Shown here in pieces: positions 37,331-39,901 of a stretch of DNA of 64,000 nt. The position numbers and the translations under genes were made by a program. The DNA comes from Anaerolineae bacterium (GTDB lineage: Bacteria > Chloroflexota > Anaerolineae > CG2-30-64-16): the NCBI GenBank assembly GCA_038214535.1, contig JBBQRS010000008.1:1272-65271 (forward strand), read 5' to 3'. The notes beneath the pieces are model-generated. The model had not been told where the DNA came from. It searched no databases and saw only the letters and a program-made list of their open reading frames with translations. How positions within the stretch are numbered: the stretch's first letter is position 1; every line of letters starts with the position of its first letter.

Positions 37331-39901
37331 ATGAGTGTTTTATACAGCGTACACAGATCTGGCGCATATAGCCTGGCGGACGAAGCTTTCGAACAAGAGG
37401 CATCCGGCAGGCAGCTTAGTCGTGGCGGAGACCTGGTTGGAGGCGTCGAGCAGGCAGGGCTCAACGCATTAGGCCAACTCAGCCGGGTTCAGCGCGCCGC
37501 ATCAGGGCAGTATTTCACACCCGCGCCGGTTGCTCGCTTCATGGCCTCGTTGTTCAGCGATACGGAAAGTGAGGTTGACCTTCTGGATGCCGGCGCCGGC
37601 GTCGGCATGTTGACGGCCGCTTTCACCGAAAGTGTTTGCTCACGGGGAGTGAAACCACCGAAGATTCGAGCCGTGGTTTACGAGCAAGAACCGCAACTCA
37701 GCGATGACCTCGAAGATACACTCCGGGCCTGCGAGACCTATGCAAAACTGAACAGCGTTGACATGCGTGGGGAAGTCCTGACGACCGACTTTGTCGCTGC
37801 GGGGGTCGCGCAACTTCGCCAGGATTTATTTGCTCCGAAGTTACGAAGCTTCAATCGCGCTATCTTGAATCCACCCTATAAAAAGATTCGGAGCGATTCG
37901 GACTACCGCGCCTTATTGCATGAAATCGGCATTGAGACCAGCAACCTGTACACGGCTTTTCTCGCGATTGTGATTGAGTTGTTGGAGGACGGCGGCGAGC
38001 TTGTGGCGATCACCCCGCGGAGTTTCTGCAACGGTCCCTATTTCAAGCCCTTCCGCGAACTCCTGATCGGCAAAACTGCTATCAAGCGCATCCATCTGTT
38101 TGAGTCGCGTGAAGCGGCGTTCAGTCAAGATGAAGTGCTTCAAGAGAATGTTATCTTTCATTTGGTGAAGTTTGGGACCTCGGATCGGGTCACGCTTTCT
38201 CGAACGCAAGGGGTTGACGATCACACGATGACCCTGCGCGAGGTTTCGTATTCGCAGATCATTCATCCTGACGATTCAGGGCTGGTCATTCACATCCCAG
38301 TGGATGGGTTGGACGCATCCGTTCGGGATCGTTTGAGATTCTTCAACGCGTCTCTTGATGATTTGGGCGTGAGCGTATCAACCGGTAAGGTGGTGGATTT
38401 TCGCGTGGCCGCGGCGTTGCGACAGGAGCCTGCACCGGATACTGTGCCGCTGATTTATCCGGCGCACATGAAGGATGGCGTCGTTCGGTGGCCGAATCCG
38501 AAGCACGAAAAACCGCAATCTCTGTTGGTATCCGAGGAAACGCGCCGCATGTTGTTGCCGCAGGGTTACTATGTTCTCGTCAAACGATTTTCTTCTAAGG
38601 AGGAGCCGCGCCGAATCGTCGCCGCGGTGCTCGATGCGAACATCCTTCCTGCCTCACAGGTTGCTGTTGAAAACCATGTCAACGTCTTCCATGCCGCCAA
38701 TGCCGGCTTACCGCCGGATGTGGCGTGCGGTCTGGCGTCGTACCTGAACTCGACGCTCGTTGACGTCTATTTCCGTCAGTTCAGCGGGCATACCCAGGTC
38801 AATGCAACTGATTTGAGAATGCTGCGATACCCCGATTACGAGATGCTGGCGCGGTTGGGGGCGCGGGCGGATACCACATTTGCACAGGCCGAGATTGACG
38901 CGTTGCTTGAAGAGGAGCTTCATCGCATGAACGATCTTGACACGCCTGATCCCGTCGCCGCCAAACAAAAGATTGCCGAAGCGTTGGAGGTTCTCCGGGC
39001 GTTGGGAATGCCGAAGGCGCAGTTCAATGACCGTTCCGCGCTCACCCTTCTTGCGTTACTTGATCTGCAACCGGATATGTCGTGGAGCAAGGCGTCTAAC
39101 CCGCGCATTGGCATCACGCCGATCATGGACTTTTGCCGTGATTACTACGGCACGCGACATGCGCCCAACACGCGTGAGACTTTTCGGCGCTATACGATGC
39201 ACCAGTTCATCCAGGCTTTCCTTGTCGTCGAGAATCCCGATCAGCCGGACCGACCGACCAACAGCCCAAAGTGGTGTTACCAGGTCGAGCCGAAGGCTTT
39301 GGCCCTCATGCAGGCCTTTGGGACGGAACAGTGGCGCGAGGCTCTGGCTCAATGGCAGACAACCGTCGTTGGCGTGAAGCAGCGATATGATCGGGAACGC
39401 GAGATGAACAAGGTTCCGCTGCAGCTTGCGGACGGCCAGGAGCATTACCTCAGCCCGGGCAATCACAGCAAGCTCATTCGTGAGGTTGTGGAAGAGTTCG
39501 CGCCGCGATTTGTGCCGGGCGGTCAGGTTATCTACATTGGCGACACCGACGACAAGTGGTCTTACTTCAATGAAGATCGGTTGCTTGCCCTTGGCGTGGC
39601 CGTGGATGAACACGGAAAGATGCCGGATGTCGTGATCTATGACGAAACGCGCGATTGGCTGGTTCTTGTCGAGGCCGTGACGAGTCATGGCCCGGTGGAC
39701 GCGAAGCGCCGCGAAGAACTGGCGCGCCTGTTTGCCACGGCAAAGCCGGGCCTGGTCTATGTGACGGCGTTCCTCTCGCGGCGCGACATGACGCGCTACC
39801 TGGCAGACATCTCATGGGAAACCGAAGTCTGGGTTGCTGAGGCGCAGACGCATCTGATTCATTTCAACGGCGAACGTTATTTGGGGCCATACGAGACCTG
39901 A
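37331..39901 (+). CDS. Single-chain fusion: gamma-class N6-adenine DNA methyltransferase plus BsuBI/PstI-type restriction endonuclease domain
   Basis: MTase motifs [41 protein letters not shown]. C-terminal half has [25 protein letters not shown] and [25 protein letters not shown]. 856 aa with no internal stop. AT-richer than the flanks. Confidence 0.75.
   Translation: [856 protein letters not shown]

What the first reader, a model, noticed from the sequence alone, without database searches (positions are those of the whole stretch)
37331..39901. Single 856-aa polypeptide joining a PstI/BsuBI-like m6A methyltransferase to a PstI/BsuBI-like restriction endonuclease
The N-terminal 530 aa or so carries gamma-class N6-adenine MTase motifs in order: [31 protein letters not shown], then NPPY in [10 protein letters not shown]. 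The C-terminal 320 aa or so has blocks I associate with the BsuBI/PstI endonuclease family: [25 protein letters not shown], and the PD-(D/E)xK-like [25 protein letters not shown]. In the classical PstI and BsuBI systems, M and R are separate genes. Here there is one uninterrupted ORF, and no second MTase, specificity subunit or controller protein lies nearby. The gene is visibly AT-richer than its neighbours and its stop codon sits inside a family B hairpin, both consistent with horizontal acquisition. A covalent M-R fusion of an orthodox Type IIP pair raises the question of how self-restriction is avoided, and it may behave as a Type IIC/IIG-like enzyme.
Basis: partly seen in the sequence, partly recalled or inferred. 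Interest (0 to 1): 0.68.

Follow-up and report, generated by a model that had tools for sequence, protein, structure and literature searches.

The report
Fused PstI-type methylase–nuclease gene
The window carries a real single-gene restriction-modification system of the PstI/BsuBI family, with methylase and nuclease in one reading frame; this layout is common and already catalogued, but a conserved ribosome-binding site and start codon at the joint suggest the nuclease is also made on its own.

Summary
Window 37331-39901 (+) is one uninterrupted 856-aa ORF. Residues 39-530 are a complete M.TaqI-like gamma-class N6-adenine methylase. Residues 545-856 are a complete BsuBI/PstI/SdaI-type endonuclease. 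The ORF is colinear with the two-gene EcoGIII system of Stx2 phages, which acts on CTGCAG (44% identity to M, 57% to R).

The fusion is not rare. All 120 best database hits have the same architecture. 76 of 80 genome loci from more than ten phyla are uninterrupted. A PADLOC model of 840 positions already covers the whole protein. No accessory gene is conserved next to it. It is not Type IIG-like, because the methylase comes first and each half has its own DNA reader.

The new point concerns the joint. Fused and split relatives differ by one codon (532). The next codon, M533 (ATG 38927), is a start-type codon in 74 of 77 fused genes, and every Leu there is TTG. An SD-like GGAG lies 4-12 nt upstream in 60 of 77, kept through rare codons. 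mRNA structure is weak at this site. The locus therefore probably makes both an M-R fusion and a free 324-aa nuclease. Expression was not tested.

The gene is a new member of a known kind, of modest interest.

The parts
37331..39901 (+). Whole fused M-R ORF, 856 aa including the stop codon
   Evidence: ORF list. Full-length match to PADLOC PDLC03359, residues 39-854 on profile positions 16-839 of 840, E 3.9e-283.
37445..38920 (+). Methylase half (residues 39-530): gamma-class N6-adenine methylase, M.EcoGIII/M.PstI type
   Evidence: PADLOC methylase-only model PDLC03227 matches residues 39-530. 44% identity to the phage TL-2011c 'modification methylase BsuBI' over its whole length. Fold match to M.TaqI with TM 0.76, and to M.BseCI and CamA.
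37580..37606 (+). SAM-binding motif I, [9 protein letters not shown] (residues 84-92)
   Evidence: D86, G88, G90 and G92 are invariant in 109 fused homologues.
37868..37879 (+). Catalytic motif IV, NPPY (residues 180-183)
   Evidence: N180, P181, P182 and Y183 are invariant.
38198..38875 (+). Target-recognition region of the methylase (about residues 290-515)
   Evidence: Colinear with M.EcoGIII-type residues 215-440. Mostly beta structure in the model, as in the TaqI C-terminal domain. The boundaries are approximate.
38912..38917 (+). Internal Shine-Dalgarno-like GAGGAG, 9 nt before the internal ATG
   Evidence: An SD-like tetramer lies 4-12 nt upstream in 60 of 77 fused genes, against a background of 8.5%. 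It is kept by codon choice: Arg is always AGG, Gly only GGG or GGA.
38924..38926 (+). Codon 532 (CGC, Arg): the position that carries the stop codon in the split relatives
   Evidence: L016 and L020 have an in-frame stop here. The amino acid is unconstrained in fused genes.
38927..38929 (+). Internal ATG (M533): the ancestral and probably still used start of a free 324-aa endonuclease
   Evidence: A start-type codon in 74 of 77 fused genes (ATG 60, TTG 13, GTG 1). In L020 it directly follows the methylase stop codon. The next codon prefers GCA, and local mRNA structure is weak.
38966..39364 (+). Endonuclease N-terminal winged-helix DNA-binding domain (residues 546-678)
   Evidence: Pfam PF17728, E 2.2e-51. 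Aligned to the SdaI N-terminal domain.
39413..39874 (+). Endonuclease catalytic PD-(D/E)XK domain (residues 695-848). P765-D766 are at 39623-39628 and E781 is at 39671-39673.
   Evidence: Pfam PF06616, E 7.8e-62. P765, D766, E781, T784, G787 and R793 are invariant in 109 fused homologues. 57% identity to the phage R.EcoGIII-type enzyme.
39894..39927 (.). 34-nt palindromic repeat element (AGACCTGACAGGTTT-N4-AAACCTGTCAGGTCT) overlapping the last two codons and the stop
   Evidence: Five copies in the window with identical arms and no conserved flanks. It belongs to the host's repeat family, not to the RM gene.

Best explanation
This is a self-contained, horizontally acquired Type II restriction-modification module of the BsuBI/PstI (EcoGIII-like) family. 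It most probably acts on CTGCAG.

Ancestry. The ancestor was an M-then-R operon in which the methylase stop codon sat directly before the endonuclease ATG, in the same frame. Here that stop is a sense codon (codon 532).

Products. The methylase is therefore made only as a 95-kDa M-R fusion. A Shine-Dalgarno motif (38912-38917) and an ATG (38927) are conserved inside the ORF. They probably still start translation of a free 324-aa endonuclease.

Methylase half. It is a monomeric M.TaqI-like enzyme with its own recognition domain. It would make N6-methyladenine on both strands of the site.

Endonuclease part. It has an SdaI-type winged-helix reader and a PD...E catalytic domain. It would cut unmethylated sites after dimerising through the R portions, as R:R, as R with M-R, or as (M-R)2.

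Self-protection. It works as in ordinary Type IIP systems. Fully methylated and hemimethylated host sites are resistant, and the methylase restores full methylation after replication.

Shown: the domain identities, intact motifs, colinearity with a characterised two-gene system, the recurrence of the fusion, and nucleotide-level conservation of the internal start region.

Inferred: both enzymatic activities, the CTGCAG specificity, use of the internal start, and the dimer forms.
For: Domains and motifs.

Colinearity with the phage TL-2011c M (44% identity) and R (57% identity) genes, which overlap as ATGA. That system methylates and cleaves CTGCAG according to PMC3893438 and PMC6602927 (both cite Fang et al. 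2012). SdaI (CCTGCAGG) is more distant, at 40% identity.

The fusion is recurrent and stable:
- 120 of 120 best hits have the same architecture.
- 76 of 80 genome loci from more than ten phyla have one open frame.
- 7 viral contigs are fused.
- Both halves are equally conserved, with 199 positions at 97% or more.
- The window's protein deviates at 10 of 290 conserved positions, within the family range of 0-20.

The split relatives L016 and L020 carry the stop exactly at codon 532.

Internal start:
- Start-type codon in 74 of 77 fused genes; 13 of 13 Leu there are TTG, against 17.5% elsewhere.
- SD-like motif in 60 of 77, against 0-17 of 77 before other conserved Met columns.
- Arg is AGG in 10 of 10 (10.6% elsewhere).
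- Column 528 has the highest third-position information of the 77 variable columns.
- The second codon is GCA in 27 of 37 Ala (21% elsewhere).
- Local folding is weaker than elsewhere in the same gene in 79% of sequences, p 9e-10.
- More distant fused viral loci show the same signal.

The host uses SD sites: AAGGAG lies before the sulfatase ATG at 39944.

No conserved partner gene was found in the 80 loci.

Precedents from the literature: the artificial RM.Eco29kI fusion is active in both functions and restricts phage 100-fold (PMC3039593). [quoted passage not shown]
Against: - Nothing here shows expression or activity.
- The SD-like motif sits in a conserved E-x-E peptide, and the Met could be structural, since it ends helix 519-533 in the model. 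Part of the signal could therefore come from protein constraint. Internal SD-like sites can also act as pause sites.
- The sequences are phylogenetically related, so the simple codon-count probabilities overstate the significance.
- The 80 genome loci were ranked by tblastn score, which favours contiguous (fused) matches.
- CTGCAG is not specifically avoided. In the window its O/E is 0.32, but 22 of 64 palindromic hexamers are more depleted. Pooled over the carriers' flanks it ranks 19th of 64.
- At 44-57% identity, specificity can differ. SdaI shows that this family also reads an 8-bp superset of the site.
Confidence: 0.68

Rival explanations
1. It is a pure single-product Type IIC enzyme. 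Only the 856-aa fusion is made. The SD-like motif and the Met at the joint are a protein feature, a ribosome pause site that helps the methylase fold before the nuclease emerges, or a slowly decaying relic of the two-gene ancestor.
For: The frame is open. The model packs both halves into one confident body with pTM 0.80. E527 and E529 are conserved as amino acids. The artificial RM.Eco29kI works as a single chain (PMC3039593).
Against: Synonymous-level choices point to selection on the RNA rather than the protein: TTG for every Leu, AGG for every Arg, GCA as the second codon. So does the locally weak mRNA structure. The signal persists across lineages at only 42-64% protein identity, where relics should have decayed.
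Confidence: 0.22
2. It is a solitary methylase whose nuclease half is inactive and serves only as an extra DNA-binding or targeting domain.
For: CTGCAG is not specifically avoided in the carriers. SdaI's K251 is a Thr in the window.
Against: Thr is the family consensus at that position, in stand-alone nucleases as well. P765, D766, E781 and R793 are invariant in 109 fused proteins. The nuclease half is conserved as strongly as the methylase half. It is 57% identical to an active enzyme.
Confidence: 0.07
3. It is an assembly or sequencing artefact: two adjacent genes merged because a stop codon was lost or an indel was introduced at the joint.
For: Split relatives exist that differ by a single codon. 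The window may come from a metagenome assembly. The same protein appears in the database from one 70.6-kb contig.
Against: Codon 532 is CGC, at least two substitutions away from any stop codon. 76 of 80 independent relatives are also open at this position. The database copy of this protein is 100% identical over its length.
Confidence: 0.02
4. It is the same architecture with a different specificity: CCTGCAGG (SdaI/SbfI-like) or another site rather than CTGCAG.
For: The family contains 6-bp and 8-bp readers (PMC4081073). The methylase half is only 44% identical to the CTGCAG enzyme.
Against: The nuclease half is closer to the CTGCAG enzyme (57%) than to SdaI (40%).
Confidence: 0.25

Closest known systems
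EcoGIII (BsuBI/PstI-type) two-gene system of Stx2 phages, e.g. phage TL-2011c, JQ011318
   Same: Same two proteins in the same order, M then R. The window protein is 44% identical to M and 57% to R over their full lengths. An SD for R lies inside the 3' end of M. That system's site is CTGCAG (PMC3893438).
   Different: In the phage the two genes are in different frames and overlap as ATGA, giving two separate proteins. In the window there is one frame with no stop.
Fused BsuBI/PstI family already present in databases (PADLOC PDLC03359 'MTase_II'; NCBI 'BsuBI/PstI family type II restriction endonuclease', e.g. Desulfonema magnum NZ_CP061800)
   Same: Full-length colinear match at 53-66% identity, with the same three Pfam domains.
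   Different: Nothing essential. The window's copy is one more member. I found no published biochemistry for any member.
SdaI restriction endonuclease (PDB 2ixs)
   Same: The nuclease part aligns end to end (E 2e-72) and shares the winged-helix plus PD-(D/E)XK two-domain build.
   Different: Identity is 40%. SdaI reads 8 bp. SdaI has Lys at 251 where this family mostly has Thr. SdaI is a stand-alone protein.
RM.Eco29kI, an engineered fusion of a Type IIP pair (PMC3039593)
   Same: An orthodox palindromic R-M pair joined by removing the stop/start. Both activities are kept, and the host survives without an extra methylase.
   Different: It is artificial, in R-then-M order, with a GIY-YIG nuclease and an m5C methylase, and no internal start was considered.
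Type IIC/IIG enzymes (MmeI, BpuSI, Eco57I) and BtgZI
   Same: R and M are on one chain. BtgZI also has the methylase N-terminal (PMC4081073). There is a weak sequence and fold match to the BpuSI methylase region.
   Different: Those enzymes use one specificity module for both activities, read asymmetric sites and cut at a distance. This protein keeps two independent readers and descends from a IIP enzyme that cuts within its site.

Membership tests
BsuBI/PstI restriction endonuclease family (PF17728 + PF06616) | Both family domains matched above Pfam's gathering score, in N-then-C order | tested here: met
   173.8 and 207.7 bits against cut-offs of 27. Full-length alignment to SdaI.
BsuBI/PstI restriction endonuclease family (PF17728 + PF06616) | Catalytic PD...E(A)V motif intact | tested here: met
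   P765, D766 and E781 are present and invariant in 109 homologues. T784 matches the family consensus.
BsuBI/PstI restriction endonuclease family (PF17728 + PF06616) | Cleaves CTGCA/G or a related site | not testable with these tools
   Inferred only, from 57% identity to the EcoGIII-type R.
Gamma-class N6-adenine DNA methylase (M.TaqI / M.PstI type) | Motif I (FxGxG-like) followed by motif IV (NPPY) followed by a C-terminal recognition domain | tested here: met
   DAGAGVG at residues 86-92 and NPPY at 180-183, both invariant. Pfam Eco57I and N6_Mtase hits. Fold match to M.TaqI with TM 0.76.
Type IIC (combined R and M in one polypeptide) | One reading frame encodes both the nuclease and the methylase domains | tested here: met
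   Uninterrupted ORF. The same holds in 76 of 80 relatives. The activities themselves were not tested.
Type IIG / MmeI-like | N-terminal nuclease followed by a gamma-methylase, with both activities using one shared specificity module | tested here: not met
   The order is methylase then nuclease. There are separate readers: the TRD at about residues 290-515 and the winged helix at 546-678. The PADLOC IIG model matches only at E 3e-4 over 80 residues.
Type IIG / MmeI-like | Cleavage stimulated by or dependent on AdoMet | not testable with these tools
   This needs biochemistry.
Orthodox Type IIP pair | Separate R and M proteins | tested here: inconclusive
   No stop separates the two halves, so M is not a separate protein. 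A conserved internal SD plus ATG suggests that R may also be made separately.
C-protein-controlled RM systems | A small HTH controller gene next to R | tested here: not met
   None is present in the window. No neighbour gene is conserved across the 80 loci.

The most novel reading that the evidence does not exclude
The fused ORF is a deliberate two-product gene. Ribosomes that start at codon 1 make the methylase only as an M-R chain. Ribosomes that start at the conserved internal site make free nuclease. The two products assemble into mixed dimers, so that nuclease dimers carry a tethered methylase. This would be an undescribed way, without a C protein, of balancing restriction against modification and of moving a whole Type IIP system as one gene.
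Probability: 0.3. Interest if true: 0.6.

Novelty: new member of a known kind. Interest (0 to 1): 0.36.

Why it matters
Annotation. The gene is an ordinary member of a widespread but biochemically uncharacterised family of single-gene RM systems. NCBI names its members as endonucleases and JGI names them as methylases. Neither name flags that both functions lie in one frame.

The more useful result is comparative. Fused, in-frame-stop and overlapping-frame forms of the same M-then-R pair coexist in nature. The fused forms keep a translation start for R at the joint. If that start is used, these loci are a natural series for testing how the ratio and linkage of R and M affect establishment in a new host, self-restriction and phage defence. 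This question is usually studied only with engineered fusions such as RM.Eco29kI.

It also warns genome annotators that 'fusion' proteins of this kind may hide a second product.

Tried and rejected
1. Site avoidance as evidence for specificity or activity. CTGCAG occurs 6 times against 18 expected in the window. However, 22 of 64 palindromic hexamers are more depleted. Pooled over 1 Mb of carrier loci it ranks 19th of 64. Not informative.

2. Conserved neighbour genes (second methylase, controller, Vsr). Clustering of the flanking ORFs from the 80 loci gave no family present in more than 7 loci.

3. Loss of the catalytic Lys. SdaI K251 aligns with T784, but Thr is the consensus in fused and stand-alone members alike. 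Not a sign of decay.

4. A hidden frameshift at the poorly conserved N-terminus. Homologue N-termini align to the window in a single frame.

5. Literature on a characterised fused PstI/BsuBI enzyme. REBASE itself could not be queried.

6. Source record of the window's protein. The look-up found nothing.

7. A neighbour-joining tree of nuclease domains shows fused and stand-alone forms interleaved. It is crude, with long terminal branches, so I use it only as a hint of repeated fusion or fission.
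Full report
**1. What is there**

The window has a single open frame at 37331-39901 (+) of 856 codons.

- Pfam places an Eco57I/N6_Mtase methylase region at residues 48-260, and the two BsuBI/PstI endonuclease domains at 546-678 and 695-848. 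All four hits are above their curated cut-offs.
- PADLOC's REBASE-derived models fix the boundaries. A methylase-only model covers residues 39-530 and a nuclease-only model covers 545-856. An 840-position model labelled 'MTase_II' covers 39-854 in one piece at E 3.9e-283.
- The only solved relatives by sequence are SdaI (residues 542-855, E 2e-72) and, weakly, the methylase region of BpuSI.
- An AlphaFold2 model built on 109 homologues is confident (mean pLDDT 87.4, pTM 0.80). Residues 1-32 are disordered.
- The N-terminal half of the model superposes on M.TaqI (TM 0.76), M.BseCI and CamA. The C-terminal part matches SdaI.
- Each half is therefore a complete enzyme with its own DNA-reading module.

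The other claims also hold: low GC (GC3 0.653 against 0.82-0.89 in neighbours), a stop codon inside a repeated hairpin, and no second DNA methylase or controller nearby.

ATG 37331 is the only start that keeps the conserved residues 43-63. No other start-type codon occurs in frame before codon 71. The 786-aa version of this protein in the database (P0001) starts at M71 and would lose the invariant Q60 and T63.

**2. What it is related to**

The protein is a colinear join of the two proteins of the EcoGIII-type system carried by Stx2 phages.

- Residues 63-526 are 44% identical to the phage methylase over its whole length. Residues 548-856 are 57% identical to the phage nuclease.
- In the phage the genes run M then R and overlap as ATGA, in different frames.
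- That system was shown to methylate and cut CTGCAG, according to PMC3893438 and PMC6602927.
- SdaI, which reads CCTGCAGG, is only 40% identical.
- CTGCAG is therefore the best guess for the site, with moderate confidence.
- On plasmids of cultured Proteobacteria, the relatives at about 49% identity are likewise two adjacent genes.

**3. How common the fusion is**

- All 120 best hits in the 5.8-billion-protein collection carry the same three domains at about 840 aa and 53-66% identity.
- A scan of one genome per species found 410 genomes with a relative. The best 80 come from Chloroflexota, Latescibacterota, Planctomycetota, Acidobacteriota, several proteobacterial classes, Gemmatimonadota, Verrucomicrobiota, Armatimonadota, Binatia and Saccharimonadales.
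- In 76 of those 80 loci one stop-free frame spans both halves. Two (L016, L020) have a single in-frame stop exactly at the joint. Two (L046, L057) are broken elsewhere.
- This sample favours contiguous matches, so it overstates the fused share.
- A search with the nuclease domain alone is not biased in that way. Among full-length matches in the best 150 cluster representatives it found 19 fused, 51 stand-alone and 5 intermediate. These are interleaved in a crude tree.
- In viral contigs chosen through methylase peptides, 34 loci have the two genes in different frames, 7 are fused and 1 has an in-frame stop.
- No neighbouring gene is conserved across the 80 loci.
- Both halves are conserved equally, with 199 positions at 97% or more. 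These include motif I, NPPY, P765, D766, E781 and R793.
- The window's copy departs from the family at 10 of 290 highly conserved positions. This is inside the family range of 0-20.
- The gene looks intact, and the architecture is old, mobile and already catalogued.

**4. The joint**

The split relatives show how small the difference is. L020 reads ...EYLA-stop-MDTP... and L016 reads ...RELD-stop-AVSN.... The stop sits at the position of window codon 532, and in L020 the nuclease ATG sits at 533. The 'fusion' is thus the replacement of one stop codon by a sense codon. The amino acid there is free to vary (R, H, N, K...).

The next codon is the notable one. In a codon alignment of 77 fused genes:

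- It is ATG in 60, TTG in 13 and GTG in 1. Every Leu there is TTG, although TTG is only 17.5% of Leu codons elsewhere in these genes.
- An SD-like GGAG, GAGG or AGGA lies 4-12 nt upstream in 60 of 77. The background is 8.5%, and other conserved Met columns have 0-17 of 77.
- 'Start codon plus SD' is found in 58 of 77 at this column. The next best column has 14.
- The motif is maintained at the nucleotide level. The residue at column 528 varies (G, E, Q, R, K), but its codon is always NRG. Arg is AGG in 10 of 10 (10.6% elsewhere), and Gly is only GGG or GGA. This column has the highest third-position information of the 77 variable columns.
- The codon after the start prefers GCA (27 of 37 Ala, against 21% elsewhere).
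- The 41 nt around the start fold more weakly than other windows of the same gene in 79% of sequences (Wilcoxon p 9e-10).
- More distant fused genes on viral contigs show the same SD-plus-start arrangement.
- In the window the elements are GAGGAG at 38912-38917, a 9-nt spacer, and ATG at 38927-38929.
- The host clearly uses SD sites: AAGGAG precedes the next gene's ATG.

These are the marks of a working translation-initiation region inside the ORF. I infer that the locus yields both the M-R chain and a free 324-aa nuclease.

Caveats:

- The sequences are related to one another, so the simple codon-count probabilities overstate significance.
- The E-x-E peptide and the Met may also carry protein-level constraint.
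- Internal SD-like sites can act as pause sites.
- Expression was not observed.

**5. Mechanism**

Shown: two complete, conserved catalytic modules in one frame, descent from an M-then-R operon, and a conserved internal start region.

Inferred:

- The methylase half works as a monomer on each strand of CTGCAG, as M.TaqI-type enzymes do.
- The nuclease parts dimerise to cut unmethylated sites. PMC3850674 expects MTase-REase fusions to dimerise through the REase portion.
- Host DNA is protected exactly as in a two-gene IIP system.

Because the methylase exists only as the fusion in 76 of 80 relatives, the fusion must be a competent methylase wherever the nuclease is active. The engineered RM.Eco29kI fusion shows that such a chain can protect its host and still restrict phage 100-fold (PMC3039593).

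A stop occurs at codon 532 in 2 of 80 loci. The chance share for stop codons is 3 of 64. This is compatible with the fused and split states being nearly equivalent once R has its own start. It is equally compatible with weak selection for the fusion. I cannot separate the two.

**6. Comparison and verdict**

By definition the protein is Type IIC (PMC4081073). It is not Type IIG-like, because the domain order is reversed and the two activities do not share one specificity module. It is a member of the BsuBI/PstI nuclease family and of the gamma-class N6-adenine methylases, by every sequence feature I could test.

I found no paper describing a fused member, and REBASE could not be consulted. I rate the gene a new member of a known kind. 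The architecture is unsurprising to a specialist. The conserved internal start is the one point worth an experiment.

Noticed in passing
window 39894-39927, 42221-42254, 57835-57868, 60825-60857, 61194-61226: A 34-nt perfect palindromic element (AGACCTGACAGGTTT, 0-4 nt loop, AAACCTGTCAGGTCT) occurs five times. The arms are identical, the flanks are unrelated and no T-run follows. It looks like a REP-like repeat rather than a terminator. One copy supplies the stop codon of the RM gene.
   Followed up: partly
whole window: Very strong general avoidance of palindromic hexamers, measured against a second-order Markov expectation: ATCGAT 0 against 24, GTCGAC 1 against 18, GGGCCC 2 against 34, CAGCTG 2 against 23, TGGCCA 3 against 29, GGCGCC 15 against 101. 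This suggests a long history with many restriction systems.
   Followed up: no
L001-L080 pooled (1.0 Mb): CAGCTG is the most depleted palindromic hexamer across the flanks of 80 carriers from many phyla (64 observed against 383 expected, O/E 0.17). No non-carrier control was available, so I cannot tell whether this is general or linked to this family.
   Followed up: no
window 43278-45881 (+): An 867-aa ORF joins a MurF-type Mur ligase (three Mur ligase domains, residues 29-445) to a complete alanine racemase (residues 491-864). This is another enzyme fusion in the same window.
   Followed up: partly
window 37029-37238 (+) and 42713-43201 (+): Two small ORFs near the RM gene also have low GC3. 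One is a DUF2283 protein (GC3 0.686) whose start overlaps the stop of the DUF72 gene. The other is a 162-aa Cys/His-rich ORF with an HNH-like CxxC...H...CNxC pattern and no Pfam hit (GC3 0.607). Both may be further acquired DNA.
   Followed up: no
window 37331 against 37541 (codon 71): The database copy of this protein (P0001, 786 aa) was called from M71. That start removes the invariant GQxFTP region. It is probably a start-codon miscall.
   Followed up: yes
L046 (about 7871-8360) and L057 (about 7914-7918): Two relatives are pseudogenes. L046 has a frameshift near the 3' end, and L057 has an in-frame stop inside the nuclease winged-helix domain.
   Followed up: partly
window 32806-33036 (+): A small HicB-like antitoxin ORF (Pfam E 5e-5, below the gathering score) lies in a low-GC patch at 32250-33250.
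   Followed up: no
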